Source: Shigella phage Sf12. Taken from it: a stretch of DNA of 47,647 nt. Both the position numbers and the translations under genes were made by a program. The stretch is from the sequence record MF158039; one strand, written 5' to 3'. The number at the start of each line of letters is the position of its first letter. Position 1 is the first letter of the stretch. The notes beneath the pieces were generated by a model, which made no database searches, was not told the DNA's origin, and saw only the letters and a program-made list of their open reading frames with translations. Shown in pieces: positions 17,082-37,612 of the stretch.

Positions 17082-17276
17082 TTACTCCTTAACCTTAATC
17101 ACCTTAACAATCCCACCCAACTCTTCATCGTTAATGCTACCCCACTCCATAGCCTCAGCTTTCGTATCGAACCGCTTAGCATCAGCTTTGTGGTCGCAGT
17201 AACCTGAACCATCCTCGCAGTAGTAGACCGTGCCGAAAATCGGATTGTTTCGCTCTTGAATAATGAAGTATGCCAT
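17082..17276 (-). CDS. Hypothetical protein, 64 aa
   Basis: ORF track. Confidence 0.4.
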   Translation of the reverse strand: MAYFIIQERNNPIFGTVYYCEDGSGYCDHKADAKRFDTKAEAMEWGSINDEELGGIVKVIKVKE

Positions 17277-19190: not shown

Positions 19191-19716
19191 CGTTTGTGAA
19201 TTTTGGTTTGATTACTTCACCATTTGATCCATTCCTTAATTCATAAATCATGTCAAATTCAGAGTTTGTATAAGCATCAACAGTAATCCAATCCTCTGGA
19301 AAAAACTCACCAAATGAACCAGTATACTTGTCATCATCATAGTCACCGATAAACTTACTATAAAAAACCCTTAAATCAGTTCTTGAAAAGTCATAATCAT
19401 CATCACCTAAATCAGACCATGAAATATTGAAGCCCTCTCTCAAGAATGGATCATCTTTAGGCTCCATGACGCCACCTTCATTTAAAACATAATAACCATC
19501 AGAACCATCCTCTGGATTGTACCAATCAAAGTTTCTATAAAGCCTGTATCCATTTAGGATATTAGATAGAATTGAACTAAACTCAGAAAGCCCATACCAT
19601 GAACCGGAAATCTCATCATAACCATACTCAAGATCCCCAATGTCTACATCAAAGTAAAATGGTCCATGATCAACACCACCAACACTCGCCCAAACCAAAG
19701 TTTTTTTAATGCTCAT
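19186..19716 (-). CDS. Hypothetical acidic Trp/Tyr-rich protein at the distal end of the tail module
   Basis: ORF track; position after J. Confidence 0.45.
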   Translation of the reverse strand: MSIKKTLVWASVGGVDHGPFYFDVDIGDLEYGYDEISGSWYGLSEFSSILSNILNGYRLYRNFDWYNPEDGSDGYYVLNEGGVMEPKDDPFLREGFNISWSDLGDDDYDFSRTDLRVFYSKFIGDYDDDKYTGSFGEFFPEDWITVDAYTNSEFDMIYELRNGSNGEVIKPKFTND

Positions 19717-19725: not shown

Positions 19726-20442
19726 TTAATCGTAGTTTGATGTATTAATTGCCACAGCAGTAACTCCAGTGTTTATTGAACCAGTCTGAGAGCCAGGTAC
19801 AGTATTGTATCCAGCCGCCCTTATTCTTGTTCTCGAACCGTTGTAGTTAGCTGTTGTGTATAGGTCAATTGTATACCTCTGAGGTATACCTCCAACAATT
19901 TGCTCAGATATTATCGCTCCTAACCTCCTCGGTGATACAGCCCATGATCCAGATAATAATGAGCCGGTATCTATGTTTATACCTCCCCCAGCTTGCCCTG
20001 GTGTTCCAACCGTTCTTAAATCTGAAAGCACCTTCGTTTCGTTAGTTAGTATTAACTTGCCAGCAGCATCCCATATTGCCATGCCCCAATCAGGTAATGT
20101 TTGCGTGAATATCCCGAAAATATATACTGTTGCAGTAAAATTTTCTCCGCTTGAGTTTTGCGCTGTGAAGTAAACATTTCCAGAGTTTGGTCCACTTGTG
20201 AATCTGTAAGCAGCAATTCCCGTACCTGTGTTTGTCTCTGTCGTCTTTGCGAAAACCATGCAAGGTATATCATTTGGAACTGGTATGTAAACTGAACCTG
20301 TCATACCACCACTACCAGAATGGGTTGTTTTTTTGTATAAAGCAAAAGGTGTTGAGTTTGGGGTTATGAATGGATTTCCATTAACATCAATCATTGCACC
20401 ATAAGACATTATTGATTCTCCAGATAAATTACAAGGTAGCAC
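19726..20442 (-). CDS. Hypothetical Gly/Thr/Ser-rich tail-module protein (possible fiber or receptor-binding component)
   Basis: ORF track; composition; position after J. Confidence 0.45.
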   Translation of the reverse strand: MLPCNLSGESIMSYGAMIDVNGNPFITPNSTPFALYKKTTHSGSGGMTGSVYIPVPNDIPCMVFAKTTETNTGTGIAAYRFTSGPNSGNVYFTAQNSSGENFTATVYIFGIFTQTLPDWGMAIWDAAGKLILTNETKVLSDLRTVGTPGQAGGGINIDTGSLLSGSWAVSPRRLGAIISEQIVGGIPQRYTIDLYTTANYNGSRTRIRAAGYNTVPGSQTGSINTGVTAVAINTSNYD

Positions 20443-20714
20443 TCTTCTGCTGGATAAACTCCATCTCCAGGCGTTGTTGTTGCTGATATCGTTATAGCGT
20501 TTCCACTTGCGGTTATCTTTCTGGCTGCCTCATTTCCACCAACACTCAAGCTGACTGTGTAACCTAACTTTGTTCCAGACGGTATTGTGTATGAGTAACT
20601 CCCTGAAGTTTGACCAGTCTCAAGCTTAACAACCGCAACAACCGTGACTGGCTTAATCCCATAGTTATTGTAATTACCATTTGCATCATATGTAGCAATC
20701 CCATATGCAGCCAT
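20409..20714 (-). CDS. Hypothetical tail-module protein, 101 aa
   Basis: ORF track. Confidence 0.45.
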   Translation of the reverse strand: MAAYGIATYDANGNYNNYGIKPVTVVAVVKLETGQTSGSYSYTIPSGTKLGYTVSLSVGGNEAARKITASGNAITISATTTPGDGVYPAEECYLVIYLENQ

Positions 20715-20761
20715 AAATTCCTCCTATTGATAAGGGCAATTCCATTTGCCCATTCTATCAG

Positions 20762-23700
20762 TTAGTAAACTCCAGTCAAACGGCCAATCTGAACACGAAG
20801 CCTTCCGTTAGCGTCAGCAACAGATATTGTCTCATTTGTTTGCTTCATTCTACCCTCTCCAGCCGTAGAGCCGTTATTTTCGAACGTTCCACCCTTGTCA
20901 AGTCTCCATCCGACAGAGCCAAATACGTAGTTGTTAGACTGAATTGCACCACCAATCTTCGCGTTAGTGATTGAACCGTCCTGAATAACCGCGCTTTGTA
21001 TGAATACCTGGTTATTCTCGACAACGAAAGGCAGCGACCACTGACCGGAACCAGAACTAATGCCGTTACTGATTGCAAACCTGTTAGCATCGAAAATGAA
21101 CTGACTACGAACATTTCCACCACTACCGGTTAACTCCATGCTCATGCCAGCACCGTACTCAACTCCATTGTACTTAAGGCCTAGCTTAACGCCGTACTGA
21201 ACACCAACGCCTTCAACTGTAGCGTAAGAGTCGAGCTTCTGATTCAAAGCCGCCTCGTTATCACCAAGCCTTGCGCTGAGAGCCGTATCAGCAGTAGCCC
21301 TCGCTTCCGTCTCGGTTGCTAGCGCTGTTTCGATAGTTGTAATCTGACCAACAATCTCATCATCAATTTGCGCCTTAAGCTGCGTAAGAGCCTCTACACG
21401 AGCCTCAGTTTCGTTGGCTATTAGATTAACAGCCTGACGATACTCAGCCTTCCTGGCTCCATTTTCACGCCTCATAACACGAACATCAGTATCGTTTGCC
21501 AATGCGTTCTCAATTATTGCCTCGGCCTGGTTCTGAATGTCAGCATTTGCATCTATCGCGTTCTGGAGTAGATACTTGTATCCATCTGAGTTTTCAATAT
21601 CAACCTTAATTTCTCCAATGATTGCACTCACGTCATCCGAAGCCATACCCCTGACAAAATCAGTCCATTGCGATACGTTACCAATCCTGTCGATCGTTCT
21701 TCCCCTATACCAGATCACCTTTCCTGCCGGGAGCGTCGTGTGCCAATACTCAAACTGAGGGTAAGGAACGAGAGTTAACAATGAGGCATTCTCAGGGGTG
21801 TATGTCCCATCGCCATTATCAGCAACTTGCTGCAATTCCACATAAGCAGTATCACCACTATTATTGCCAAAACCCCACTTAACACGGATGCCAAATACTT
21901 CATCATCTGAAGCCGTGATGACCTGCAATGGCTCAGGCTCACCAACCTTACCAGTCAAGCTAACTGTTGTAATTTCAGACCATGCCGATACTGATTTTTG
22001 GTCAGTTACAGCACGAACCCTGACGTCGTAAATGCCAGCGTAGATGCCTTCAATATCAACCTCAGTGTTAGCCGTCTCCGGTACATTAATCCAGTTTCCG
22101 TTATTCTTACGCCATTGCACGTTGTATGTTTTCGCATACTGCACCTTGTCGTAACCGATAACCATCGTCTCAACGCTCATGCCCTGAACTACTTTGCTGT
22201 AACTAGTAACCGTAATGTTCTTCGGTGGTAAAATCCTGTCAGGGTCAACTATGCTTGTTGGCCTGTCGTCGATGTTTACTCCGTAGTCAATCTCATCGTA
22301 CTTGTTAGGGTCATACTGAACAGCCGTGATGCTGTACTGGAATGAATCCTCTCCGTCCGTGTTGGCTTTTTGAATCCCGGTCACAACATATTGCTGTAAA
22401 GCAAGATTCTGCTTGTCGATTGCAAATACCGTATCTGGCTGCGGCGTGAAGCTGAATGCTGTATTCAGCTCAAGCGTCAACTTATCGGCAGATACTGAAG
22501 CGATAGTCCTGTACTCCGGGCTTCCATCTGGCTTGTTGATTAAGATTCTGTCGCCAGGGTCAGCATCAATAGCGAACGGAACAAAAACCTGCAAACCAGT
22601 AGCCTCCACGATTCGACCAGAAAGGTTTAACGTGTAATTGCTTGACCAAGCTTGGTCATTAACAGCAATGACATCACCAATCATAGGAATCATACCTTCG
22701 AGTCCGGTGGTGAATGTTATTGTTTCGCTACGCAAGTTCGTTTTAAGGAGCCAACGACCACGACGGTTAGCCTCGCTACGCCTTACGCATCCAATTGCAG
22801 TCAGGTCTACAGGGTTATACCCAAACCTGCGAGTTGCCTCAAGGTCAAACACTGGCTCTACGTCTTGCTGGTAGTTGTTCTCTACATCATCAAACTGAAC
22901 GTTGGCAGTCGTGTACAAACTCTTATCACTAGCAAACGTGCGGTTGAATAAACCATCGACTACGTTATCATTTGTGAATACGTAACTTGGTTGGCGCGGC
23001 CTGTCAACTACAATCCCAATTTGCTCACCATCATAGAAGGTTAATCCACGGAAAATGGAACAGATGTCACGAATAATCTGATACGCTTCCACTTTCTGCT
23101 GAATGACAACGTTACAAGTATATCGCGGCTCCATTCCACCCTTACCATCCGGGACCATCTGGTCGCAGAATTGCGCAGCTTCATACAGACCCCACTTATC
23201 AATCTCAACTCCAAGCTCTCGCTGGTCAAGCCCATACCTCTGACTGACTACCAGGTCATATAAAACCCACGCCGGGTTATCTGACCATGCCATCTTGAAA
23301 GTTCCATCCCAAGTTCCGCTATAAGTCCGCGTTGCTGGGGTGTAGTTTGTTGGGACTCTAATTATCTTCCACCTTTTCTTGATTGCGATAGGCGGCAACC
23401 CGTTAGGAAAAAGGTCTGAACTGAACTCTACATAAACAAGCGCTGTAAGTGGATAACGGAATTTGGCGTCAATTACTTCCTGATAGGTCGTAATCTGCAT
23501 TCCGTTTACCAGAGTGCTGCTTGTTGAGTCTGGCGTTAACTTCCTAATACGAACAAGAGCGCTGCTAAACTCGGCTGGTAAGTTAACCCTGATACTGCGG
23601 TCGTAACCTGTTGTAGTTTTACCGTTAGCCACGCCTCTGGTATATTCAGTGTACGCTGAGCCATTAACTGATAAATCGATTGCATATTCACATGTTGTGC

Positions 23701-24157
23701 CATTTAAATCTCCATTCTCTTCTTGCTTAACGAGTCTAGGCCAGAACAGCTTGACGCGAATTGCTGATAGCTGACTGTTGTTTACTGCTATGATGTAAGG
23801 TGTATCGTTGTTAATCTCGCGGCTAACCTGAATCTCTGATGCTGCACCATCTAGTCCGGCGATATAGTCTTGAGACTGAGTGCCAGGGCGAAATTCTGCG
23901 GTCACTCCTTCGTAGTTGAATGAGTTATCCTGGTTTTGCACGGGAACGTCAGCAAGGTAAAGGTCTTTAAGTGAAAAGCTTGAGTCAACCTCGCCATCAG
24001 CAACGGCCAGTAGCACCTTAATCTTGTTGAGTGAAATCAGGTTATCTTCTTGCTCTACAGGTGTGTGCTGCTTTTGGCTACCACCCTTGCTTCCATAAAT
24101 CTTTGGCAAATCGGCCATATCATATAACCTCGTTGTTTGTTTAACCATTTGTGCCAT
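20762..24157 (-). CDS. Central tail fiber / host-specificity protein (lambda gpJ-like); probable true start at Met 24118
   Basis: YSGTWDGTF ... DKWGLYEAAQFCDQMVPDGKGGMEPRYTCN resembles lambda J conserved core as recalled. Confidence 0.9.
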   Translation of the reverse strand: MAQMVKQTTRLYDMADLPKIYGSKGGSQKQHTPVEQEDNLISLNKIKVLLAVADGEVDSSFSLKDLYLADVPVQNQDNSFNYEGVTAEFRPGTQSQDYIAGLDGAASEIQVSREINNDTPYIIAVNNSQLSAIRVKLFWPRLVKQEENGDLNGTTCEYAIDLSVNGSAYTEYTRGVANGKTTTGYDRSIRVNLPAEFSSALVRIRKLTPDSTSSTLVNGMQITTYQEVIDAKFRYPLTALVYVEFSSDLFPNGLPPIAIKKRWKIIRVPTNYTPATRTYSGTWDGTFKMAWSDNPAWVLYDLVVSQRYGLDQRELGVEIDKWGLYEAAQFCDQMVPDGKGGMEPRYTCNVVIQQKVEAYQIIRDICSIFRGLTFYDGEQIGIVVDRPRQPSYVFTNDNVVDGLFNRTFASDKSLYTTANVQFDDVENNYQQDVEPVFDLEATRRFGYNPVDLTAIGCVRRSEANRRGRWLLKTNLRSETITFTTGLEGMIPMIGDVIAVNDQAWSSNYTLNLSGRIVEATGLQVFVPFAIDADPGDRILINKPDGSPEYRTIASVSADKLTLELNTAFSFTPQPDTVFAIDKQNLALQQYVVTGIQKANTDGEDSFQYSITAVQYDPNKYDEIDYGVNIDDRPTSIVDPDRILPPKNITVTSYSKVVQGMSVETMVIGYDKVQYAKTYNVQWRKNNGNWINVPETANTEVDIEGIYAGIYDVRVRAVTDQKSVSAWSEITTVSLTGKVGEPEPLQVITASDDEVFGIRVKWGFGNNSGDTAYVELQQVADNGDGTYTPENASLLTLVPYPQFEYWHTTLPAGKVIWYRGRTIDRIGNVSQWTDFVRGMASDDVSAIIGEIKVDIENSDGYKYLLQNAIDANADIQNQAEAIIENALANDTDVRVMRRENGARKAEYRQAVNLIANETEARVEALTQLKAQIDDEIVGQITTIETALATETEARATADTALSARLGDNEAALNQKLDSYATVEGVGVQYGVKLGLKYNGVEYGAGMSMELTGSGGNVRSQFIFDANRFAISNGISSGSGQWSLPFVVENNQVFIQSAVIQDGSITNAKIGGAIQSNNYVFGSVGWRLDKGGTFENNGSTAGEGRMKQTNETISVADANGRLRVQIGRLTGVY

Positions 24158-24169
24158 TCTACACTAAAT

Positions 24170-24190
24170 AAAAAACCCGCACTAGGCGGG
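24170..24190 (-). terminator. Hairpin plus T-run between I and J (possible attenuator)
   Basis: cccgcctagtgcggg then tttttt on minus strand. Confidence 0.45.
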
Positions 24191-24198
24191 TTGTGATT

Positions 24199-24774
24199 TT
24201 AAGCAATATCTTCAGCGTACGAGCCTGCACTAAATACAGCGCCACCAACCGTTCGATATCCATATGGTAGGCATACTGGATTTCCAGCCGCAATGGTGTT
24301 TACTGCTGATCCAAATGCGTATGATGCTCTGTTGCTTGTCTGTGATGCCTGGTCATTCAATCCAGTCGCTTGTGGTGCCAATAACTGAGCTACACCACCA
24401 GCAAGAAGGCCTACAGCCACTGGCAAAAGAACAGGAAAGAAGTAAGACGCCACCAGAAGTACACCGCCAAGGATTGTCTGGAATAAGCCGCCAGATTTTC
24501 GACCTTGAGGTATTGGCATAATCCTGATTTCACGAACAGTCTCAAGGTCATTAATCTTGTGCTCGTTGACATTTTTCCCGTCAACGAATACAGCAAACCT
24601 TGTGTTCTGGCCCACATGGCTACGCATGAATTCTTTAAATTCAGGAATGTTTACAGAAAGAGCTCGCATTGCTTCTGGGACTGTTTTCACGCAAAGCTTA
24701 TGTAGCTTTCCAAACTTCCTGCCCAAACCTAATCCCAACTTAACATCAATCACGTTCTGGGTCATAACCCGCAT
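24199..24774 (-). CDS. Tail assembly protein (lambda gpI-like)
   Basis: C-terminal hydrophobic segment with GGVAQLLAP; position between K and J. Confidence 0.7.
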   Translation of the reverse strand: MRVMTQNVIDVKLGLGLGRKFGKLHKLCVKTVPEAMRALSVNIPEFKEFMRSHVGQNTRFAVFVDGKNVNEHKINDLETVREIRIMPIPQGRKSGGLFQTILGGVLLVASYFFPVLLPVAVGLLAGGVAQLLAPQATGLNDQASQTSNRASYAFGSAVNTIAAGNPVCLPYGYRTVGGAVFSAGSYAEDIA

Positions 24775-25522
24775 CCTCCGGTAAATCTTTATGCCTTACG
24801 ATTCGCACTGTCCGCTCACGATAGTAGTCGCCGTACAAATCAACCTTACTCATCTTACCATATAAATGGTGTAGGATTTTATTATCACCAATATAGATGG
24901 CAGCGTGGTTTGTCTTCTCGCTTTGAATCTGCATCATAATCATCGATCCAATTGGGATGTTATTACCGCGAACTAACTCGAACCCCTCTAACTCCCAATT
25001 GTCATCGTAGATATTGTCAGGGTATTCGTTCGTCCACCACTGATAATCAACGCGGTAGTCATTTAGTTTAACGCCGTGTAGCTTGTGAAATTCCATAACC
25101 AAATTCCAACAGTCGAAGCTGCCAAGACCCCATGGGCGACCAGCAAGCGGCATTTTTTCTGGCTGAATAATCCGTAAGTCCCCTTCAGGTATAGAAACAA
25201 TAACATAAGGCAGCTCGCACTCATTGCAGCTGCAAATATCAGCTGCGCTTGGCCTAGTAGTAGCACCATCACCAGTATGTGAATGTACAACATAAACAAC
25301 GTTTTCATTATCTGAAATCTCCATGAATTCTGATGGGTCAAGAATGAATGATTGCTCTGGTGTTTTGGATACGTTGGTAATCCTGTGATACTTCTGAGCC
25401 ATTCCCTTTTGAGTCACAACCCCGCAAGATTCTTGCGGGTAAACCTCGTTGGCATGTCGAAATATTTCGATTTTTACTTTAGGTGTTAGCATTTTATCTC
25501 CCATGATTCTCATGAAAACCAT
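24746..25522 (-). CDS. Tail tip protein (lambda gpK-like: JAMM/MPN plus NlpC/P60 domains)
   Basis: HSHT JAMM-like motif, Cys/His peptidase signature; position. Confidence 0.7.
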   Translation of the reverse strand: MVFMRIMGDKMLTPKVKIEIFRHANEVYPQESCGVVTQKGMAQKYHRITNVSKTPEQSFILDPSEFMEISDNENVVYVVHSHTGDGATTRPSAADICSCNECELPYVIVSIPEGDLRIIQPEKMPLAGRPWGLGSFDCWNLVMEFHKLHGVKLNDYRVDYQWWTNEYPDNIYDDNWELEGFELVRGNNIPIGSMIMMQIQSEKTNHAAIYIGDNKILHHLYGKMSKVDLYGDYYRERTVRIVRHKDLPEDAGYDPERD

Positions 25523-25971
25523 TTAACCTTCTGAATTCATCTACAGCAATTGATGCTGATTCAAATGATTCATGACTTCCTAAGCTGTATTTCTTCCCAT
25601 TGAAGACAACGCTTGCCCTGTAGTTATTTCTGTCCTTTCTAAATGTGACCCCACTTTCACCGGTTGTATTTCTCTTATTCATTTTCATGTTTTTTTTGAT
25701 TTTCAGAGTGACTAACAATCCTTAAATTTTCTACCCTATTGTCGGACCTCGAACCGTTTATGTGATCTATCTCCATACCTTCTGGTATATCACCGTTGTG
25801 CATTTCCCAAACAATCCTATGCACGTAATGATAACTTCCTTTAGCACCAACCCTCAAGTATCCTCCGCTACGCAAAGAACCCGCTAAAGATCCTATTACT
25901 ATATTTCTGTTTGTCTTCTTATTCCAGTAAAGCTTGCCATCTCTGTATTCAAAAATTTCATTCCAGTTCAT
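25494..25971 (-). pseudogene. HNH homing endonuclease split into two ORFs by a frameshift at a T8 homopolymer (25690..25697)
   Basis: ORF 25675..25971 carries the HNH motif EIDHINGSRSDNRVENLRIV; ORF 25494..25718 carries the C-terminal domain. Confidence 0.6.
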
Positions 25972-25992
25972 TTTTAATCTCCAGTTTAATAG

Positions 25993-26040
25993 ATTATAGG
26001 ATAGCGCATTTCTGCGCTACCCAATTAACAAAAAGTGCTT
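25993..26040 (-). promoter_or_regulatory. Variant junction cassette upstream of the HNH gene: palindrome-like (26026..26040), hairpin, consensus -10 TATAAT
   Basis: ttaacaaaaagtgctt; tagcgcatttctgcgcta hairpin; TATAAT complement of 25993..25998. Confidence 0.4.
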
Positions 26041-26806
26041 AAGTCTGTTGGTTGGCTTTAGCTTGCAGGCTTGCGGCTGCACAACCGCCAAAGTCTAATT
26101 GATTGTTAGCTCCAAACCTTAACTTACAGGCGGTCACGGTTCCAGCACAGAAGTCTTGTGATGGGTCAGTCACAGGCGCGTTGTCCTTATCGAAATATCG
26201 AGTACCCATGTAGTTACATCCATTGCCTGAGCGGTAAAGCCCTCGCTGAGCCCAATAACAAACTGACTGAACAAGGCGCGCCGGAATGTAGATACCATCC
26301 ATATCCATCGGGCTGGTTAGTTCAAATGAGGCCGTATTGTAATCAACCTGCTTAGGTCGCTCAATGAAGTAAACCAGCTTGCGGTAATCGCCATCAGCAA
26401 TGGTGCCATCTTCGTTAATATTCTCCCGAAGGGTGATCCAGATAGTAACCTTGGCCTGAACAAGGCCATTGTAGGTGCGGATAAGCGCAGAAATGTTCTG
26501 GTCAACATTAGAGACAACTAGCGTTACTTTGTTTGCCTTGCCATCAGAAGTCATATTAATACCCTGAATACCGAATGGCCTTGCGCCGTACTCTTCACCA
26601 CGGAAAGTAATTGTCTTCGCTGAAATAGGTTGCCCCGTAGACTGAGCAATCATAATTTCTTCTGGTGTGTAGCTGATGTTCTCTCCATGGAAGCGATACA
26701 CCCTCCCGCCAAACTTAGTGCCATCAACCTCGATTAGCGTAACAATCTCGCCAGGGAACAGGCTTTGTAATTGATTCTCAAACTTAGTGCTTAATGGCGT
26801 AGCCAT
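26039..26806 (-). CDS. Minor tail protein (lambda gpL-like)
   Basis: C-terminal Cys cluster C..C..C..C; position between M and K. Confidence 0.7.
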   Translation of the reverse strand: MATPLSTKFENQLQSLFPGEIVTLIEVDGTKFGGRVYRFHGENISYTPEEIMIAQSTGQPISAKTITFRGEEYGARPFGIQGINMTSDGKANKVTLVVSNVDQNISALIRTYNGLVQAKVTIWITLRENINEDGTIADGDYRKLVYFIERPKQVDYNTASFELTSPMDMDGIYIPARLVQSVCYWAQRGLYRSGNGCNYMGTRYFDKDNAPVTDPSQDFCAGTVTACKLRFGANNQLDFGGCAAASLQAKANQQT

Positions 26807-26820
26807 AATATTTCTCCAAT

Positions 26821-26842
26821 AAAAAAGACCCCGTAGGGTCTT
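26821..26842 (-). terminator. Rho-independent terminator after the moron gene
   Basis: gaccctacggggtc then tttttt on minus strand. Confidence 0.6.
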
Positions 26843-26860
26843 AGTTTATCTCAATTTACA

Positions 26861-27055
26861 TCAATCTTCACTAGTAATAACCTTTGATGCATTTTTTGAG
26901 TAGTGAGAAATCTCATCAAAAGACAATTCAACCCACTCATCCAAGCCAATCTCATAGTAAAGAGGTTTATCTCCAGAGTTATCAATTGTTACAGAGAATG
27001 GCTTTCCATTGTGGAAGTGAACCAGTACGAATTGTGATTTAGGGAAGTTTTTCAT
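26861..27055 (-). CDS. Moron: hypothetical 64-aa protein inserted between tail genes M and L
   Basis: Own junction-cassette promoter upstream and own terminator downstream. Confidence 0.5.
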   Translation of the reverse strand: MKNFPKSQFVLVHFHNGKPFSVTIDNSGDKPLYYEIGLDEWVELSFDEISHYSKNASKVITSED

Positions 27056-27103
27056 TTCATTATCCTCGTTTGTTTGTTTTGGTCATTTCGTTTCGATGAA
27101 GTG

Positions 27104-27150
27104 ATAATACACCACTTCACCGATTCGTCTTTAGCAATTCGTGCTATTTA
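27104..27150 (-). promoter_or_regulatory. Junction cassette copy driving the moron: palindrome (27132..27146), -10-like TATTAT (complement of 27104..27109)
   Basis: tttagcaattcgtgctattta; 22-bp gap; leader catcgaaacgaaatgaccaaaacaaacaaacgaggataATG. Confidence 0.55.
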
Positions 27151-27498
27151 CTGCATCGAGGTAAAAACTTCTACAAACTGCATTGATACAGTCTGCACTT
27201 CCCTAGTGTTTGGTGTGACACTGATGCTGTCTTGAGCCACAACAAACAACCTCAGCTCACCCTGCGGAGTTGTCCAGGCGAACGGGGTGATGATATGCGC
27301 AAAACAGAAGTCTAACACTTCCTTCCAGTTGGTGTTGGTGTAGGTCATGTTGTAAGTGCGCTTATTGGTTCTGTAACCTCCAGTACCAATTTGGGTGTAG
27401 CCATTACCGAATGAGACGCTTCTTACATTGCTTGCGTTGGTAAATGAGCCGCCGCCATTTTGAACCTGTGTACAAAAAGTAAAAGTATCTAATGCCAT
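27148..27498 (-). CDS. Minor tail protein (lambda gpM-like)
   Basis: Size, position between tape measure and L, N-terminal similarity as recalled. Confidence 0.6.
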   Translation of the reverse strand: MALDTFTFCTQVQNGGGSFTNASNVRSVSFGNGYTQIGTGGYRTNKRTYNMTYTNTNWKEVLDFCFAHIITPFAWTTPQGELRLFVVAQDSISVTPNTREVQTVSMQFVEVFTSMQ

Positions 27499-27529
27499 TT
27501 AAAATCCTTAGGGGCCGAAGCCCCATTTA

Positions 27530-30271
27530 TTAACTGTAACCGCGCAAGAACTGGTAAGCAGTCCCGCCCTGCTGGAAGGACTGAGTAATCTCTTCCGCGA
27601 TGATAACCCTGATACCAGATTCTAACTGTTTAGCGTCATTACCGCCACCGCCGCCAAGACCTGTCTGAACGGTAACATTCACTCCACCAACGTTAACGTT
27701 GCTTCCACCAACAAGTCCACCAGTCGCATAACCAGGACCAGAACCAACCACTCCGCCGTTGGCGTATCCGCGCATCAACTTGTACAGGTTGTCTACACCA
27801 ATCCTTGACGTTGCCTCCTTCGTAAAGACAAATTCACCACGATGCACTGTACCAGCTGGCTCGTACTTACCACCGTTTCCAGTGTAACCACCTGAAGCGA
27901 AACCAAATGCGCTACCAATGGAGCCAATAGCACCACCGCTACCGCCAAAACTAGAGATGGTTGACTCAATCGCCTTAATCAAAAGTAGCTGCGTTGCAAT
28001 GCGTGCAATCTGCTTCAAAATCGACGCTGTAAACTCGCGGAAGTTAGCCTCTCCAGTTGTTACCAAGTTTGTAATCTGATCAGTCAAGCCATTAAAGGCA
28101 CTCGTTGCCAATTCAGCTCCAATCTGATTGAAATTTGCCAATTCATCAGCTGTCTCGGCGAATGCTGACCTAACGCCAGCCAGCCAGTTACCACGTAATG
28201 CATCTTCCTGATTGTAGAAATTCTGACGAGCCTGAAGTAGCGCCTGAAAGTCAGTATCGTCTACTGAGCCACCTCGATTAACTTGCTGCGCTGTTAATGC
28301 TGCAATTTCACGCTGCCTCTCCTGCTCCCTTCTTGAAAGTCCAGCTCCAAGTGAAAGCGCTTCAGTCTGGGCGTTAATCTGATTGGTCTTCCTGATGTTT
28401 TCATCAAGTAATTTGTTTGCAGCTTCCTGCTGCTGAATCTGGTCACCTAGAATCGCAGACTTCTCACGCTCTGCAAGAATGATATCTCTCTTGGCGAACA
28501 ATTCACGCTGCGCTGCATTTGCAGTGCCTGCGTTAATTCTTTCCTCGATAACTGCAAACCTCGCCTGTTCATCAATTAGCTGCTTGCGCTGCTGACTGAG
28601 AGTTCTTCCTACCAGTTCCTGATCTTTAAGTACCCTGAGTTGAGCCTCCAGTGCTATCACTCCAGCTTCCGCGTCCTGGGTTAAGTCTCTTTGTTGTCTT
28701 GGCTGCCTTTCTGTGGTCCTCCTCCCATTTCTTGGTTTGTTTGCTTCGGCTAGTTCCTCCTTCCTGATTTCAACAATCCTATTGGCTTGTCTAATTGCCT
28801 CGGCATTACCGCTCAGCCTAATCTTGTTTAGCTGGCTTTCCGCTTGCTGTAATGCTCTAGTCGCACCAGCAACTCTATCAGTAGCGAAGTACTCCTTGTC
28901 GATTGCTGCTACAGTCTCAGCTCTTTCCCTCGCACCTTCACGAAGTGCGTTGTTTAGATCCGTTGCTGTTATCGCTATATCATCAATTGATCGCTGAACC
29001 CTTGCGTTGTTACTGACCTGTGAGTTACCAAGCTGCTGTAAAACTCTAGTTAGAAAACCAACCTCTGTTGCTGCCTGCTTGTAGCTATCAGCAATCCCTG
29101 CGACTTGAGCTTTGTGTTCTGCAATCTTTGCGTTAACTGCGGTGAAGTTTGAAGCATCCTTATACTGATCAACAAGCTCCCTCGCCTCTTCATAGCTCAA
29201 ACCAACATCAATAAGAGCAAGTTCAGCTTCTAAAGCGCCATCTGTAGTTGATACGAATGCTTGTGCAATTGACTCAGCAGACTTGCCTGTCTCCTCCGCG
29301 AGATCAGCGACCAGCTGACCAAGCCTTGATGCGGAATCACCAGTCAGGCCAAGTGATTTCTGAACTGCTGCCGTTCCTTCTTCCAGCCTCTTTTGTGAGT
29401 TGAATATTGATACGCCTAGCGTAGTAAATGCAATTGCAAGAACACCAAGAGAAGCCGTTACAGGGTTAATGTAACTAAGTAAGAACCTAAATGTGTTAGC
29501 GACACCTCCGAAGCTATCCTTAATCTGACCACCCTGCTGTATTGCAATAAGCCAAAGTGGTATGCCGCCAGCGATTGATGTCCCGATGTCTGTAATCTGC
29601 GCCGGAAGTTGTGCAATGGCATTTTTATATTGACCAGCGCTTAACCCTGATTTCCTGAACGCCTCGGCTTGACGACCTAGCGCTTCTACGTTAGCGTTCG
29701 TCCTTTGAGAAATTGATTGAATCAATGGTGCCGCCTGATCTGAAACACCAAGCTGGGCCGCTCTAAGTTCAAGAAGTTCTGTAGTTGTCCTTCCAGCTGC
29801 TAGCTCTTGCTGCCTGAGCGACTCAATGAACCTTTGACCAGCAGAGGCAAGCTTTTCTTTCTCTCTTGAGGCAGCTAGTGAAGCCCTACCTTCCTCAGTC
29901 AATGCGGCAGCACTTCTACGCAGTCTATTTTCCTGAGTCTCAAGAACCTCCCCAAGCCTGAAGAACTGCTCATCAGGAACTACACCAGCGGCAAACGCCT
30001 TATCTAAACCCTCCGCAGCTACACGCAACTTCTGTAGTTTTGAAGCCGTTGGGTCAATCGTCTGACTAAGCCTCTGAAAGGCTATCTGCTGTTCCTGCGT
30101 TGCCCTTGCGGTATCTCTGGCTATTGTCCTGGCAACTTGCTCAGCGTTAACAAACTTATCAACACCAGATGCCGCCTGTTCATTGGCACGTTTAAATTCT
30201 TGCAGGGACTTTGTGCCCTGTTCAACTTGGCGAACGTCAACGCCAAGTGTGATACCTGCAAATTCTGCCAT
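27530..30271 (-). CDS. Tail tape measure protein (start refined to Met 30271)
   Basis: About 910 aa, Ala/Gln-rich coiled-coil, Gly-rich C-terminus; follows G/T chaperones. Confidence 0.8.
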   Translation of the reverse strand: MAEFAGITLGVDVRQVEQGTKSLQEFKRANEQAASGVDKFVNAEQVARTIARDTARATQEQQIAFQRLSQTIDPTASKLQKLRVAAEGLDKAFAAGVVPDEQFFRLGEVLETQENRLRRSAAALTEEGRASLAASREKEKLASAGQRFIESLRQQELAAGRTTTELLELRAAQLGVSDQAAPLIQSISQRTNANVEALGRQAEAFRKSGLSAGQYKNAIAQLPAQITDIGTSIAGGIPLWLIAIQQGGQIKDSFGGVANTFRFLLSYINPVTASLGVLAIAFTTLGVSIFNSQKRLEEGTAAVQKSLGLTGDSASRLGQLVADLAEETGKSAESIAQAFVSTTDGALEAELALIDVGLSYEEARELVDQYKDASNFTAVNAKIAEHKAQVAGIADSYKQAATEVGFLTRVLQQLGNSQVSNNARVQRSIDDIAITATDLNNALREGARERAETVAAIDKEYFATDRVAGATRALQQAESQLNKIRLSGNAEAIRQANRIVEIRKEELAEANKPRNGRRTTERQPRQQRDLTQDAEAGVIALEAQLRVLKDQELVGRTLSQQRKQLIDEQARFAVIEERINAGTANAAQRELFAKRDIILAEREKSAILGDQIQQQEAANKLLDENIRKTNQINAQTEALSLGAGLSRREQERQREIAALTAQQVNRGGSVDDTDFQALLQARQNFYNQEDALRGNWLAGVRSAFAETADELANFNQIGAELATSAFNGLTDQITNLVTTGEANFREFTASILKQIARIATQLLLIKAIESTISSFGGSGGAIGSIGSAFGFASGGYTGNGGKYEPAGTVHRGEFVFTKEATSRIGVDNLYKLMRGYANGGVVGSGPGYATGGLVGGSNVNVGGVNVTVQTGLGGGGGNDAKQLESGIRVIIAEEITQSFQQGGTAYQFLRGYS

Positions 30272-30305
30272 GTAACCTCCATAAAAAAACCTCCACAAAG
30301 GGAGG

Positions 30306-30560
30306 TTATTTTTGCCTTACTTGCATCATCTCAAGTGCTTTGCACTCCAGTATTCGCAAGTCATTTAAAGTCATCTCTTTGTCCTTGACATTATACACAT
30401 CAAAGAGGAAAGGGAGTACTGAATAATCTATTCCGGTAGCGCCGTTCATACCTACACGCCATTGAGTTGAAGCAGCCTGATACACAGTCCATGCCAGCAT
30501 CATGTCATCATCGAAGTGTAGTTCTTCAGGCTCTTCATCTTCGTAATCGGAACGCCTCAT
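30306..30560 (-). CDS. Tail assembly chaperone T-like segment (probable -1 frameshift extension of G)
   Basis: Frame is open upstream into the end of G; frame offset consistent with -1 shift. Confidence 0.45.
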   Translation of the reverse strand: MRRSDYEDEEPEELHFDDDMMLAWTVYQAASTQWRVGMNGATGIDYSVLPFLFDVYNVKDKEMTLNDLRILECKALEMMQVRQK

Positions 30561-30622
30561 GCCAATTGCTTCAAGCTCGGATTCCGTTGGCTCTCTTTGG
30601 TATTGTAGATATACTGCGCGCT

Positions 30623-30937
30623 TTAGACCTTTGCGCGTTGGCCCGCCAGAGCTTGCATGTAAGCATTAGTCAGTGCAAGAACGGATGCGGGGAACAGGGA
30701 GACCAGTTCTTCGATGTTCTCGTCGTTAAATTCCTCTTCAAGGTTCCAGCCACTGCAAATCTCTTTCACAAAATCAAAGTCCTTAAGGCCTTCTGTCTGG
30801 AATACTTCCTGAATTTCTTTTGCCTTACGGTGTTTTGCGTTGAAGATAACCTCAGCTTCCTCGCCGTTGATCATCTGGAACTTAACTGGAAGCTTGAAAT
30901 CAGGGAGTGCGCCTAATTTTAATTTGAACTTAGCCAT
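30623..30937 (-). CDS. Tail assembly chaperone (lambda gpG-like)
   Basis: 104-aa acidic protein between major tail protein and tape measure. Confidence 0.55.
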   Translation of the reverse strand: MAKFKLKLGALPDFKLPVKFQMINGEEAEVIFNAKHRKAKEIQEVFQTEGLKDFDFVKEICSGWNLEEEFNDENIEELVSLFPASVLALTNAYMQALAGQRAKV

Positions 30938-30980
30938 TTAAATAATCCTCTCGTGTTTGTTTGAGTTGAAATTATAACAT

Positions 30981-31005
30981 AAAAAAAGCCCCTGTGAAGG
31001 GGCTT
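30981..31005 (-). terminator. Rho-independent terminator after the major tail protein gene
   Basis: aagccccttcacaggggctt then ttttttt on minus strand. Confidence 0.6.
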
Positions 31006-33568: not shown

Positions 33569-33633
33569 ATTATATAGCCATATAAACAAAAATACCACCC
33601 CGAAGGGTGGTAGGTGATCAGCAATAATTGCTA
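33569..33633 (-). promoter_or_regulatory. Composite junction: palindrome (33619..33633) right after the capsid-gene stop, terminator hairpin (33596..33611), then -10 TATAAT (complement of 33569..33574)
   Basis: gcgTAA-TAGCAATTATTGCTG; ccacccttcggggtgg plus T-run. Confidence 0.55.
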
Positions 33634-34680: not shown

Positions 34681-36156
34681 CTATGCGAGAGGTTCGCTTA
34701 AGTTTTCCACCTTATAAGCGTAAACGCCAGCCAAGGCATCGGATGAGTTCCTTATGCCAACTATTGTAAGCTTGAAGCATTTAGAGTCAGCTGTAGCTCC
34801 TGGTGATGTGGTTACGTAGTGCTCAGATGTGACTCCAAAAACTCCTGGCTTGAACACGCTATTCCAAAGAGCAGTCCCAGGAGGCATGCTTGTTACTATC
34901 GCTGTGTAGTTTTTCAACTTATCAGCTGCAACTGTAGTGAGTGAGTCAATCTGGTATGCAGTGTGCCTTATTGAAGCGATGTTTGATGTACCGGTATTAC
35001 TAACACCAACCCACAGCCCCTTAGCGGCAACTGTCGCATTCTTCTCTCCGGTAAGAGCGAACCTTATTGTTGTCTCTCCAGGTATATCTATAAAGTCAGT
35101 ATCCGTCTGATTGATCAACCCTGACCTTACGCCTGAAGCTACGTTATAAGAGGCTGGACCAGCCACCCCCTGTAAGCCCTGAGGTCCCGTAGGGCCCTGC
35201 AATCCACGCTCACCCTGCGGGCCTGCCGGGCCTTGTGGTCCAACTGCACCAGCTACACCTTGTAAGCCTTGCGGGCCAGCTGGGCCTTGCTCACCTTGCA
35301 GGCCCCTCTCGCCTTGTGGGCCTTGAATACCTGCCGGACCTGTCGGGCCAGTTGGGCCTGCTGGACCAGCGGAACCCTGTGGGCCTGGAGCACCCTGTGC
35401 GGCCAGTAACTCCCAGGAATCGCTAACATCTGGATTTTCTCCGGTCACGGCGGCGGTAGCAAACCAGCTTGAGTTATTGAATGTAACAACGTCATCTTTA
35501 ACGTAAGCTGTCGCTGCGTCGTACATCCCGCGGAATGTTAAGCCTGCCGGACCAACTGGGCCCGCATCACCTTTATCACCTTTAGGGCCAGCAGGACCTG
35601 CTGCGCCAGTTGCACCGATAGGGCCTTGCGGACCAGCCTCGCCAGTTTCACCTTGAGGACCTTGCGGGCCTACGGGGCCAGCTGGACCAGTTTCGCCTTT
35701 AGCACCTGCCGCGCCTGCCGGGCCGGTAGCACCTGTTGGGCCTTGAGGACCCTGTGGACCAATAGCTCCTGCCGGGCCCGCTGGACCCTGTGGACCAACC
35801 GGACCTTGTGGGCCTGCTTCACCTGAGCCTCCTTCTTCATCACTTACAAAATCACCTTTCGCCAGCGCTGAAAGATAAGCACCATCTTCGAAGTGGGCAT
35901 TGCCAAACCTGCGCCAGCCCTGGGCTAGATATCTGTTAACCCTGTTAACTAATCCCTGAATTGTGGTATCGGATGTCACCATGAAGTCTTCAACGTTGTT
36001 TGCTGTTCCCTTCGCCATCTTCATGCCAAAGAGGGTGCCGCTCAGCATCTGCACGTCGCCATATGGCTGGAATCCTGATGAAATCATCATTTTTACGTTT
36101 CTGGCTAAGATTTCAGGTGAATTCCCTACTGCCATAGCAATTTCTGTGTAAGCCAT
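34681..36156 (-). CDS. Collagen-like triple-helix repeat protein (fiber-like structural protein)
   Basis: Two long Gly-X-Y tracts, e.g. [34 protein letters not shown]. Confidence 0.8.
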
Positions 36157-36210
36157 CTCTATCTCCTGATTGGTTAATAATCATTGACAGTCTAACAGAA
36201 AACCAGCAAT

Positions 36211-36232
36211 AAAAAACCTCCCAAAGGAGGTT
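36211..36232 (-). terminator. Rho-independent terminator
   Basis: aacctcctttgggaggtt then tttttt on minus strand. Confidence 0.6.
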
Positions 36233-36237
36233 TGATA

Positions 36238-37530
36238 TTAAACGCGAGAAACTGAAAGGATTTCCACTTGGGCGCCAGTTTGTAAGTATAGCTGGCCAGC
36301 AACGTCATTCTCATCAATAGCATTTACTACGCCAGAGAAGATTCTGACACCAAAACCTTTAGTCAGCCTTGCCACTACGTTAAATCCACGAGGCTTAACT
36401 GGAACCATTAGTGATTTCTGACCTGTAGCCGCCAGAAAAACCTCGCGAGCCATAGCCATACCCCTGAACTCATGACCCAGAGCGCCAGGGTGAACCCTAT
36501 CAGTTCCGGTGTATATTTCAGAGTTTGCTGCCGTTACATAGTTGCTAATGTTGATTACTGGTATCCCGTTATCAGCACAGAAGCCATCAACCAACTCAAC
36601 AACCCTCTGAGTTGTGGCATTCAATCCAATTGGTGTTGCGCAGCTAATCTGGATGATTGGTACATCACTGTAAGTCTTCCTGGTCTCCTCCAGGCACTCC
36701 GACATAGACCTAAGCAGCCACTCAGCCTTGCCAGGGTCATTTATTGAAACTGAGTCATTATAACCAAGCGCCCACGAGATAACGTCAGGTTTTCTATTTA
36801 ACGCTGCGAGCCTTGTCTTTACCCTGTTAATCGGGAACCTGCCCTCCTCTTTTGAAGTCCAGGCCGATCCACCAATCCCTTCGCAGATACCATCGAATCC
36901 AAGCGCTCGACTAAAAGTATAGAAGTCGTTTACTGCAGGGGATGAGCCATAAGACTGAGTCCTAAATCCCGCACCAGTACCAGCTGTGTAGCTATCACCC
37001 ATCTGGTAAATGAATGGCCTTTTAATAGTAATATCCCTGCTAATCGTGTCTAACGGACCGAATGCGAAAGAGCCAAATGCAGTGTTAACGCCATAAATCT
37101 CAATATGCCTTAACTTTCCGCTAACGACTCCATCATTGGCCTTCACTTGAATCCAGCTAACACCCTCAGTGGTTGGTGTCGTGATAGCATCTAGGGTTAC
37201 CAATTTACCGTCAACGAATATTGAGTAAGATGAAAGAGAGCCAATGGTCTTAATTTCAAAAAGCCTTGAATCAGTCATAAACTCAAGTTTCATCTGAAGG
37301 CCATTCGAAGGCTTCTGACCAGTGTAAGACCCGCCTGAAACGTTATCAAATCCGTAGGTTGTCCACATGAGATTGGTCTCATTAAGTCTATTGATAACTT
37401 GAGGGGTGGTAATTGATGTTGCGGCCCTGATTTCCTTGATTGCGGAAAACTCAGTCGATAGCTGAACTGGCTGCATAGTAGCCAAGCCGTTTTCAATATT
37501 TCTTTTTACCAAATCAATAAAGCTTGCCAT
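36238..37530 (-). CDS. SGNH/GDSL-family esterase with about 170-aa N-terminal non-catalytic domain
   Basis: Block I GDSYTAG, block III GYND, block V DRVH. Confidence 0.7.
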   Translation of the reverse strand: MASFIDLVKRNIENGLATMQPVQLSTEFSAIKEIRAATSITTPQVINRLNETNLMWTTYGFDNVSGGSYTGQKPSNGLQMKLEFMTDSRLFEIKTIGSLSSYSIFVDGKLVTLDAITTPTTEGVSWIQVKANDGVVSGKLRHIEIYGVNTAFGSFAFGPLDTISRDITIKRPFIYQMGDSYTAGTGAGFRTQSYGSSPAVNDFYTFSRALGFDGICEGIGGSAWTSKEEGRFPINRVKTRLAALNRKPDVISWALGYNDSVSINDPGKAEWLLRSMSECLEETRKTYSDVPIIQISCATPIGLNATTQRVVELVDGFCADNGIPVINISNYVTAANSEIYTGTDRVHPGALGHEFRGMAMAREVFLAATGQKSLMVPVKPRGFNVVARLTKGFGVRIFSGVVNAIDENDVAGQLYLQTGAQVEILSVSRV

Positions 37531-37603: not shown

Positions 37604-37612
37604 TGATCTGAA

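What the first reader, a model, noticed from the sequence alone, without database searches (positions are those of the whole stretch)
24170..30302. Internal hairpin/T-run elements inside the tail operon (between I and J, and between G/T and tape measure)
Terminator-like structures at 24170..24190 and 30287..30302 lie within a co-oriented structural operon, suggesting attenuation to lower expression of the tape measure and J relative to upstream genes.
Basis: inference. Interest (0 to 1): 0.25.

Follow-up and report, generated by a model that had tools for sequence, protein, structure and literature searches.

The report
Internal terminators in T1-like tail genes
The two hairpin-plus-T-run elements are real, family-wide conserved intrinsic transcription terminators inside the tail gene cluster of a T1-like coliphage, already annotated at the same two gene junctions in phage T1 and in close relatives, so the finding is correct but ordinary.

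Summary
Both elements exist, on the minus (coding) strand. Site 1 is AACCCGC-ctagt-GCGGGTT plus a T-run at 24192..24166, between tail genes I and J. Site 2 is AACCTCC-ctttgt-GGAGGTT plus a T-run at 30307..30281, between the G/T chaperone and the tape measure gene. The window is a Rogunavirus-like (T1-like, Drexlerviridae) phage. Phage T1 and phage AKS96 carry annotated rho-independent terminators at exactly these two junctions. In IMG/VR relatives, 59 of 60 loci (T to tape measure) and 52 of 56 loci (I to J) have a sense-strand hairpin plus T-run there, against 0.03-0.04 expected. There are at least 7 and 9 different complementary stem sequences. Outgroups with the same genes have abutting or overlapping genes and no hairpin.

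The two sites differ. Site 2 starts inside the T stop codon and ends at the tape measure ribosome-binding site. With no room for a promoter, the tape measure gene must be transcribed by read-through, which supports attenuation. Site 1 is followed by a conserved -10-like hexamer. In many relatives the hairpin loop supplies a TTG 17 nt upstream of it, so this is a terminator plus a probable restart promoter. J is therefore not simply attenuated. No transcript data exist. Novelty: already known. Interest is low.

The parts
24174..24192 (-). Site 1 terminator hairpin AACCCGC-CTAGT-GCGGGTT. It starts 6 nt after the stop codon of I.
   Evidence: dG -10.1. Sequence identical in AKS96, where it is annotated as a rho-independent terminator.
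24166..24173 (-). Site 1 T-run (TTTTATTT). Together with the two stem T's it makes six consecutive T's.
24156..24161 (-). -10-like hexamer TAGAAT, 12 nt after the site 1 stem. The hexamer 17 nt upstream, TAGTGC, lies in the hairpin loop and 3' arm.
   Evidence: 5 of 6 for -10, 2 of 6 for -35. The -10 is a 5-6 of 6 match in all 15 Drexlerviridae lineage representatives scored.
20762..24118 (-). Gene J (central tail fibre / tip attachment protein). The start is revised to ATG 24118, with ribosome-binding site GAGGT at 24131..24127.
   Evidence: The AKS96 annotation places the start at the same offset.
24199..24774 (-). Gene I (tail assembly protein I).
   Evidence: Pfam Lambda_tail_I and phrog_32.
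30288..30307 (-). Site 2 terminator hairpin AACCTCC-CTTTGT-GGAGGTT. Its first two bases are the last two bases (AA) of the T stop codon TAA.
   Evidence: dG -9.1, the weakest of the series. Identical in AKS96, where it is annotated as a terminator.
30281..30287 (-). Site 2 T-run (TTTTTAT). It directly abuts the tape measure ribosome-binding site GGAGG at 30280..30276.
27530..30271 (-). Tape measure gene. The start is revised to ATG 30271.
   Evidence: Pfam TMP_2 and Tape_meas_lam_C. In-frame ATG behind GGAGG.
30306..30665 (-). T reading frame (DUF1799). It is in the -1 frame relative to G and is open from 30665, overlapping the G stop codon at 30623..30625.
30623..30937 (-). Gene G (tail assembly chaperone).
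   Evidence: Pfam Phage_TAC_4.
30971..31005 (-). Terminator after the major tail gene (AAGCCCC-TTCACA-GGGGCTT, 31005..30986), overlapping a near-consensus promoter. The -35 hexamer TTCACA lies in the loop (30998..30993). After a 16-nt spacer comes TG-extended TATAAT (30976..30971).
   Evidence: The same pair is annotated in AKS96. The design is conserved in 35 of 41 distinct family contexts.
26825..26842 (-). Terminator AAGACCC-TACG-GGGTCTT upstream of gene L. Like site 2, it has 18 nt from stem to the L start and no room for a promoter.
   Evidence: Terminators are annotated at the M-L junction in T1 and AKS96.
33593..33612 (-). Terminator after the major head protein gene, followed by TATAAT and the leader AATCGAAAC.
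36214..36233 (-). Terminator AAACCTCC-TTTG-GGAGGTTT in the head module.
37585..37604 (-). Terminator AAACCTCC-TTCG-GGAGGTTT in the head module.

Best explanation
Both elements are rho-independent (intrinsic) transcription terminators for host RNA polymerase. They belong to a series of at least seven sense-strand terminators that divide the head and tail genes of this T1-like phage into short transcription units. They are probably leaky, and they step transcription down along the cluster.

Site 2 (T to tape measure) has the architecture of a pure intra-operon attenuator. G and T are transcribed from a near-consensus promoter just upstream of G. The hairpin starts inside the T stop codon, and the T-run abuts the tape measure ribosome-binding site. 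The tape measure protein and M can therefore only be made from the fraction of polymerases that read through. This gives much more chaperone G than tape measure protein.

Site 1 (I to J) is a terminator followed by a conserved -10-like element. It ends the L-K-I message, and J is probably transcribed both by read-through and from a weak restart promoter.

What is shown: the presence, the position, the conservation, the compensatory stem changes and the absence from outgroups. What is inferred: that transcripts end there, how efficient termination is, and that the promoter is active.
For: (1) Anatomy. Each site has a G+C-rich 7-bp stem and a loop of 5-6 nt, followed by 6-7 consecutive T's (counting the stem's own terminal T's). 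Each is intergenic and on the coding strand.

(2) Prior annotation. Rho-independent terminators are annotated at the homologous junctions in T1 (19508..19527 and 24972..24994) and in AKS96. The AKS96 junction sequences are identical to the window's through hairpin, T-run and spacer.

(3) Conservation. All 12 annotated Drexlerviridae representatives examined have both elements. So do 59 of 60 and 52 of 56 IMG/VR loci, against 0.03-0.04 expected per window.

(4) Compensatory change. The T-to-tape-measure stems include CCTCC/GGAGG, CCCGC/GCGGG, GCGCC/GGCGC, GCCGCC/GGCGGT and GCCCCT/AGGGGC. The I-to-J stems fall into at least 9 classes.

(5) Outgroups. PMBT14, eiAU, HK022 and the distant loci L183-L202 have the homologous genes overlapping or abutting, with no hairpin.

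(6) Two architectural classes. The distance from stem to the next start codon is 16-18 nt at T-to-tape-measure and upstream of L, but 48-57 nt at the other five sites, each of which carries a -10-like hexamer. A TTG in the loop with a -10-like hexamer 16-18 nt downstream is found in 0 of 29 T-to-tape-measure contexts, 21 of 36 I-to-J contexts and 35 of 41 V-to-G contexts.

(7) Strength. The two sites have the weakest hairpins of the series (-9.1 and -10.1 against -10.9 to -13.5 kcal/mol). Both lie within 6 nt of an upstream stop codon. Li et al. 2016 showed that ribosomes strongly repress termination in that position (PMC4824070). Both points favour partial termination.

(8) Literature. The T1 late region has been described as transcriptional modules flanked by rho-independent terminators (PMC11447400, citing Roberts 2004).
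Against: No transcript 3' ends, RNA-seq or Term-seq data for any T1-like phage were found in the held literature. Termination is therefore predicted, not observed.

The single-sequence folding z-scores are modest (-1.4 to -2.0).

Two natural variants have disrupted hairpins (L067 at I-J and L152 at T-tape measure). If these are not sequencing errors, the elements are dispensable.

In this window the -35 position at site 1 is poor (TAGTGC, 2 of 6), so the restart promoter may be inactive in this lineage.

The authors of the TLS re-annotation could not confirm promoter-containing modules in TLS.

If the phage encodes an antiterminator, the terminators would gate timing rather than set ratios.
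Confidence: 0.7

Rival explanations
1. The terminators are temporal gates rather than ratio setters. They would stop transcription early in infection and be overridden late by a phage-encoded antitermination factor or RNA, as with lambda Q or N, or HK022 put. Late in infection coverage would then be flat.
For: There are many terminators in series (at least seven sense-strand ones across 18 kb of the head and tail genes). If each were efficient, almost no polymerase would reach J. T1-like phages use host RNA polymerase throughout and have no known RNA polymerase or sigma factor (PMC11447400).
Against: No antiterminator is annotated in T1, AKS96 or TLS. Rfam finds no put-like or other RNA family in the window. 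Promoter-like elements follow five of the terminators, which is unnecessary if antitermination carried polymerase through. The hairpins are weak and close to stop codons, so leakiness is sufficient.
Confidence: 0.12
2. The hairpins act mainly as mRNA 3'-end stabilisers or processing boundaries. They would protect the upstream V, G-T and L-K-I messages from 3' exonucleases, and the differences in expression would come from differential decay rather than from reduced downstream transcription.
For: Stable stem-loops at 3' ends are known to protect bacterial mRNAs (general knowledge). The elements sit directly after genes needed in excess, namely the major head protein, the major tail protein and G.
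Against: A stabiliser needs no T-run, yet the T-run is conserved in every lineage. A stabilising 3' hairpin has to be created by termination or processing anyway, so this adds to the termination model rather than replacing it.
Confidence: 0.08
3. The elements are chance hairpins, or non-transcriptional DNA features such as recombination or module-boundary palindromes, with no role in RNA.
For: Each hairpin alone scores modestly against shuffles (z -1.4 to -2.0). Both look symmetric, with an A-run upstream and a T-run downstream, so strand specificity is not obvious from one sequence. Homing HNH genes insert at various intergenic sites in this family.
Against: Position is conserved while stem sequences change in a complementary way across at least 7-9 classes. 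Occurrence is 59 of 60 and 52 of 56 against 0.03-0.04 expected. The T-run is always better on the coding strand. The hairpins are not at the HNH insertion points.
Confidence: 0.03

Closest known systems
Annotated rho-independent terminators of coliphage T1 (NC_005833: 19508..19527 between ST39 and ST38; 24972..24994 between ST34 and ST33) and of Rogunavirus AKS96 (NC_024789: 11633..11657; 17217..17243)
   Same: They sit at the same two gene junctions (T to tape measure, I to J), on the same strand, with the same hairpin-plus-T-run design. The AKS96 sequences are identical to the window's. The T1 I-J stem is the same (AACCCGC/GCGGGTT) with a different loop.
   Different: The T1 T-to-tape-measure stem is entirely different (GCCGCC/GGCGGT). 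The T1 I-J loop is CTTGC, which gives TTGCGC-17-TATAAT, whereas the window has CTAGT, giving TAGTGC-17-TAGAAT. All of these are computational predictions; none has been mapped experimentally as far as I could find.
[quoted passage not shown] 2004, as summarised in PMC11447400)
   Same: The window shows the same chain of terminators. Promoter-like elements follow five of the seven sense-strand ones.
   Different: Two junctions (T to tape measure, and upstream of L) have no room for a promoter, so those units are not self-contained. The TLS authors could not confirm transcriptons with stricter promoter criteria. I could not read the 2004 paper itself.
Intra-operon partial terminators that set subunit ratios, for example the rplL-rpoB attenuator of E. 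coli and the T7 T-phi terminator after the major capsid gene (from my own knowledge)
   Same: An intrinsic terminator lies between co-transcribed genes needed in different amounts, and downstream genes are expressed by read-through.
   Different: Those cases have measured termination efficiencies. Here the efficiency is unknown, and the ratio-setting role is inferred from gene order and from lambda tail stoichiometry.
Lambda-type tail gene clusters (lambda, HK022, eiAU, PMBT14) encoding homologous G/T, H, M, L, K, I and J
   Same: They have the same gene order and homologous proteins.
   Different: In these phages the T/H and I/J genes overlap, abut or are separated by morons, with no hairpin plus T-run at the two junctions. 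Internal terminators are therefore a Drexlerviridae trait rather than a property of this type of tail module.

Membership tests
Rho-independent (intrinsic) transcription terminator | G+C-rich stem-loop (stem of about 5-14 bp, loop of 3-8 nt) in the RNA | tested here: met
   7-bp stems with 5 and 4 G-C pairs, loops of 5 and 6 nt, dG -10.1 and -9.1 kcal/mol.
Rho-independent (intrinsic) transcription terminator | U-rich tract immediately 3' of the stem, on the transcribed strand | tested here: met
   TTTTATTT and TTTTTAT directly after stems that themselves end in TT. The T-run is conserved in all lineages.
Rho-independent (intrinsic) transcription terminator | Selection on structure: position conserved with compensatory stem changes | tested here: met
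   At least 7 stem classes (T to tape measure) and at least 9 (I to J), all complementary. 59 of 60 and 52 of 56 loci against 0.03-0.04 expected. Caveat: hairpins were detected with a perfect-stem rule, so pairing percentages are circular. The diversity of stems and the comparison with the background rate are not circular.
Rho-independent (intrinsic) transcription terminator | Transcripts actually end in the U-tract, in vivo or in vitro | not testable with these tools
   No transcript data for T1-like phages were found.
Regulated attenuator (leader-peptide, riboswitch or protein-controlled terminator) | A conserved alternative (antiterminator) structure or a ligand- or protein-binding element competing with the terminator | tested here: not met
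   The only alternative pairing is between the 5' arm AACCTCC and the tape measure ribosome-binding site GGAGGTT (MFE -13.0). It exists only in the Rogunavirus stem class. Other lineages have stems that cannot pair with their ribosome-binding site.
Regulated attenuator (leader-peptide, riboswitch or protein-controlled terminator) | Coupling to translation of an upstream ORF whose stop codon lies at the terminator | tested here: inconclusive
   The site 2 hairpin starts at -2 relative to the end of the T stop codon in most lineages, and at +1 or +2 in the rest. Ribosomes repress terminators placed this close to a stop codon (PMC4824070). Whether this is used for regulation or merely reflects compaction cannot be told from sequence.
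T1-type transcripton boundary (terminator followed by a sigma-70 promoter) | A promoter-like -35/-10 pair directly downstream of, or overlapping, the terminator | tested here: inconclusive
   Site 1 has -10 TAGAAT (5 of 6) but -35 TAGTGC (2 of 6), 7 of 12 in all. Relatives reach 9 of 12 with TTG in the loop.
T1-type transcripton boundary (terminator followed by a sigma-70 promoter) | The same feature, tested at site 2 | tested here: not met
   There are 16 nt between the stem and the tape measure ATG, filled by the T-run and the ribosome-binding site. 0 of 29 family contexts have a TTG-in-loop plus -10 arrangement.

The most novel reading that the evidence does not exclude
The T-to-tape-measure terminator could be a ribosome-sensitive attenuator that ties tape measure transcription to the G-T frameshift. 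Its hairpin begins inside the T stop codon in nearly every Drexlerviridae lineage. T appears to be translated only after a -1 frameshift from G. Polymerases followed by a ribosome that has shifted into T would then have the hairpin blocked and would read through into the tape measure gene. Polymerases on messages where the ribosome stopped at the G stop codon, about 320 nt upstream, would terminate. Tape measure mRNA would thus be produced in proportion to its G-T chaperone.

A second, less speculative novelty is the family-wide design in which the loop of a terminator hairpin supplies the TTG of the -35 element of the next promoter. It is seen at the V-to-G and I-to-J junctions and never at T-to-tape-measure.
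Probability: 0.1. Interest if true: 0.5.

Novelty: already known. Interest (0 to 1): 0.17.

Why it matters
For this window it matters little, because the elements are the expected, previously annotated predicted terminators of a T1-like phage.

More generally, T1-like phages are common in phage therapy collections and as fermentation contaminants, and their late transcription has never been mapped. The comparison here gives three testable points:

- The tail genes are not one operon but a chain of units.
- The tape measure, M, L, K and I genes probably depend on read-through of leaky terminators, which would explain how a phage using unmodified host polymerase makes far more major tail protein and chaperone than tape measure protein.
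- Terminator hairpins whose loops carry the next promoter's -35 element are a compact design that could be useful as a synthetic-biology part.

None of this is surprising to a specialist.

Tried and rejected
(1) MAFFT alignment of the T-to-tape-measure junctions (A3) for the count of structure pairs. Loops of 3-6 nt and stems of 5-8 bp put the arms out of register, so I did not run the tool on it. I used a loop-anchored pair table and a background-rate control instead.

(2) Rfam scan of the whole window. It found only the tRNA.

(3) Literature search for transcript mapping in T1-like phages. Nothing was found, and Roberts et al. 2004 is not held.

(4) Ribosome-binding-site sequestration at site 2, with the 5' arm AACCTCC pairing with the second GGAGGTT. 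It is nearly isoenergetic in this window but is not possible in other stem classes, so I rejected it as a conserved mechanism.

(5) The out-of-frame ATG at 30282 behind the hairpin's GGAGG (53-aa ORF 30121..30282). It is incidental: the T-run-plus-ATG motif recurs in relatives without a conserved ORF.

(6) Reading the I-J spacer match to the family direct repeat (ATGGCACAAATGGTTAAA, 2 mismatches) as a true repeat copy. It lacks the -10 hexamer about 20 nt downstream and the CATCGAAACGA leader that follow genuine copies. In relatives the corresponding motif lies in the J leader next to the ribosome-binding site. I treated it as leader sequence.

(7) A sigma-54-like reading of TGGCAC in that spacer. 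The spacing to TTG or TGG does not fit the -24/-12 pattern.

(8) A role as terminators of antisense (plus-strand) transcription. Both sites also score on the plus strand, but there are no plus-strand genes in the structural region, and the T-runs are better on the minus strand.

Full report
**What the window is.** The genes around the finding lie on the minus strand. The window is a complete 47,647-bp phage contig, IMG/VR UViG_2974508497. It is about 85-90% identical, over roughly two thirds of its length, to Rogunavirus phages: AKS96, AHP42, Rogue1, JK06 and C119. These are T1-like phages of the family Drexlerviridae.

| Coordinates (minus strand) | Gene |
|---|---|
| 24199..24774 | I (Lambda_tail_I) |
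| 20762..24118 | J |
| 30623..30937 | G (Phage_TAC_4) |
| 30306..30560 | T (DUF1799) |
| 27530..30271 | tape measure protein |

M, L and K lie between the tape measure gene and I, interrupted by an HNH endonuclease gene and a 64-aa ORF. T is in the -1 frame relative to G and is open from 30665, overlapping the G stop codon. This is consistent with a G-T frameshift product, although the overlap contains no canonical slippery heptamer.

**Checking the observation.** Both structures are there.
- Site 1 on the minus strand reads AACCCGC-CTAGT-GCGGGTT (24192..24174) followed by TTTTATTT. It starts 6 nt after the stop codon of I.
- Site 2 reads AACCTCC-CTTTGT-GGAGGTT (30307..30288) followed by TTTTTAT. 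Its first two bases are the last two bases of the T stop codon. Its T-run abuts the ribosome-binding site GGAGG and the ATG (30271) of the tape measure gene.

Hairpin energies are -10.1 and -9.1 kcal/mol, the weakest of the terminator series in this phage. Single-sequence z-scores are modest (-2.05 and -1.43). The simple scan finds 27 terminator-like sites in 20 kb against 15.9 +/- 3.2 in shuffles. Sequence statistics alone would therefore not settle the matter.

**Comparative evidence.** The RefSeq record of phage T1 annotates rho-independent terminators at the same two junctions: 19508..19527 between ST39 and the tape measure gene, and 24972..24994 between ST34 and ST33. The AKS96 record does the same, and its junction sequences are identical to the window's.

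I extracted both junctions from 12 annotated Drexlerviridae: members of Rogunavirinae, Tunavirinae, Braunvirinae and Tempevirinae (including Tlsvirus and Henuseptimavirus), plus the genera Kyungwonvirus and Webervirus. Every one has a G+C-rich hairpin plus T-run at both junctions. Three outgroups with homologous tail genes have overlapping or abutting genes, or morons, and no such element (PMBT14, eiAU, HK022).

In IMG/VR loci found with profiles of I and T, 59 of 60 Drexlerviridae-like loci have a sense-strand hit at the T-to-tape-measure junction. At the I-to-J junction the figure is 52 of 56. The background rate in the same loci predicts 0.03-0.04 per window.

The stems differ between lineages but stay complementary.
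- At T-to-tape-measure they include CCTCC/GGAGG, CCCGC/GCGGG, GCGCC/GGCGC, GCCGCC/GGCGGT, GCCCCT/AGGGGC and others.
- At I-to-J there are at least nine classes.

More distant relatives (L183-L202) have T and the tape measure gene overlapping by ATGA and no hairpin. The elements are real, under selection for structure, and a trait of the T1-like family rather than of this type of tail module.

**The two sites are not equivalent.** The window has at least seven sense-strand terminators in the head and tail genes, plus a bidirectional one at the convergent end of the cluster. They fall into two classes by what follows them.

*No room for a promoter.* At T-to-tape-measure, and at the terminator before L, the stem is 16-18 nt from the next start codon. 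That space is filled by the T-run and the ribosome-binding site.

*Room for a promoter.* At the other five sites the spacer is 48-57 nt and holds a -10-like hexamer.
- After the major tail gene, the hairpin loop itself is the -35 hexamer of a near-consensus promoter: TTCACA, 16 nt, TG-extended TATAAT, 11 of 12. AKS96 annotates the same overlapping terminator and promoter.
- Across the family, a TTG in the hairpin loop with a -10-like hexamer 16-18 nt downstream occurs in 35 of 41 distinct V-to-G contexts, 21 of 36 I-to-J contexts and 0 of 29 T-to-tape-measure contexts.
- At I-to-J the hexamer is a 5-6 of 6 match in all 15 Drexlerviridae lineage representatives scored: TATAAT, TACAAT, TAGAAT or TATACT.
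- In T1, SRT8, TLS-like, CS01-like and other lineages the arrangement is TTGCGC-17-TATAAT.
- In the window, and in Braunvirinae, the loop is CTAGT. The -35 position then reads TAGTGC (2 of 6), and only the TAGAAT hexamer remains.

**Most likely mechanism.**

*Site 2.* G and T are transcribed from the strong promoter upstream of G. The terminator at the T stop codon ends most of these transcripts. The tape measure gene and M are expressed only by read-through. It also matches the need for much more chaperone G than tape measure protein, which I infer from lambda tail assembly.

The hairpin is weak and lies on the stop codon. A terminator placed a few base pairs after a translated gene is almost completely repressed by the ribosome (Li et al. 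2016, PMC4824070). Leakiness is therefore expected.

*Site 1.* The terminator ends the L-K-I message. J is probably transcribed by read-through plus a restart promoter, which may be weak in this lineage.

[quoted passage not shown] The same authors could not confirm such modules in TLS. All functional steps are inferred. I found no transcript mapping for any T1-like phage.

**Rival explanations.**
- Temporal gating by an unknown antiterminator cannot be excluded. However, no such factor or RNA is annotated or detected, and the restart promoters would then be superfluous.
- An mRNA-stabilising role is compatible with termination but does not explain the conserved T-runs.
- Chance, or DNA-level palindromes, are excluded by the conservation pattern.
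- Two natural variants with damaged hairpins (L067, L152) suggest the elements are not essential.

**Comparison with what is known, and verdict.** These are homologues of the predicted terminators annotated in T1 in 2004 and in AKS96 and its relatives in 2014. In the AKS96 case they are sequence-identical (PMC4070988).

The most novel reading left open is that the site 2 terminator couples tape measure transcription to G-T frameshifting through ribosome occlusion. I give this about 10%. The loop-embedded -35 design is a tidy regularity. It is partly visible in existing annotation, and I could not check whether the family-wide pattern has been described before.

Noticed in passing
window 298, 975, 1402, 18739 (+); 5231, 7221, 8637, 11525, 15592, 27130, 44330, 45013, 46046 (-); each about 18 nt: A family of direct repeats, ATAGCACnnnTTGnTAAA, gives 26 hits at up to 3 mismatches against 6.85 +/- 2.1 expected. 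This is the repeat reported as unexplained in phage TLS (PMC11447400). In this window each good copy is followed about 20 nt later by a -10-like hexamer (TATAGT, TATTAT or TATGAT), then by a conserved leader CATCGAAACGA and a ribosome-binding site. The repeat is partly palindromic (TAGCA-N5-TGCTA) and would be centred near -42 of a promoter lacking a -35 element. That is the usual position for a dimeric class II activator. This suggests a binding site for a phage regulator rather than a 'stoperator'.
   Followed up: partly
window 26825..27147 (-): Between M and L there is a self-contained unit. It consists of a perfect direct-repeat copy (27147..27130) with a -10-like TATTAT, a 64-aa ORF of unknown function (26861..27055, phrog_24631), and the terminator at 26842..26825. 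AKS96 and T1 have only the terminator at this junction, so this looks like a moron inserted upstream of an ancestral terminator.
   Followed up: partly
window 25675..26041 (-): An HNH endonuclease gene (98 aa, 25675..25971) sits between L and K. It is preceded by a degenerate repeat copy (26041..26024) and a TATAAT. Relatives carry HNH genes at other intergenic positions in the tail cluster: RobRod40 before the major tail gene, ACG-M12 after the tape measure gene, and Rtp between L and K.
   Followed up: partly
window 34681..37530 (-): The head module carries a 430-aa head decoration protein (phrog_9703) and, next to the major head protein gene, a 491-aa protein whose best matches are tail fibre families and which also matches collagen-like minor tail families (phrog_5073). 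Terminators stand before and after the first of these. AKS96 has a single 294-aa hypothetical gene at this place.
   Followed up: no
window 39759..41036 and 38660..39769 (-): The portal gene appears to be followed directly by the 369-aa head maturation protease. The head morphogenesis gene (255 aa) that lies between them in AKS96 and T1 was not seen in the ORF list.
   Followed up: no
window 43468..43543 (-): A single tRNA-Arg (anticodon CCT), as reported for Rogunavirus phages.
   Followed up: yes
window 20730..20779 (-): T1 has an annotated terminator directly after J. This window instead has a promoter-like site (TTGACT-16-TAGAAT, 10 of 12, with TG) overlapping the J stop codon, and only a weak hairpin (GGGCAA..TTGCCC) with no T-run, ahead of the outer-membrane-protein-like gene at 20409..20714.
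   Followed up: no
L067 (IMGVR_UViG_2974611450) and L152 (IMGVR_UViG_2974572761): Two natural variants have disrupted terminator hairpins. In L067 the I-J 3' arm is replaced (AACCCGCTCCGCATTCATTTTTTTT). In L152 a base is missing from the 3' arm of the T-to-tape-measure hairpin. If these are not sequencing errors, they are ready-made tests of whether the elements are dispensable.
   Followed up: no
Webervirus loci L081-L097, I-J junction: Klebsiella Webervirus phages have two hairpins in tandem after I: a small AAGCGATTCGCTT plus T-run, then a long 11-bp stem AGCCTGGGGGC/GCCTCCGGGCT (about -20 kcal/mol). This is much stronger than the 7-bp stem of the coliphages.
   Followed up: no
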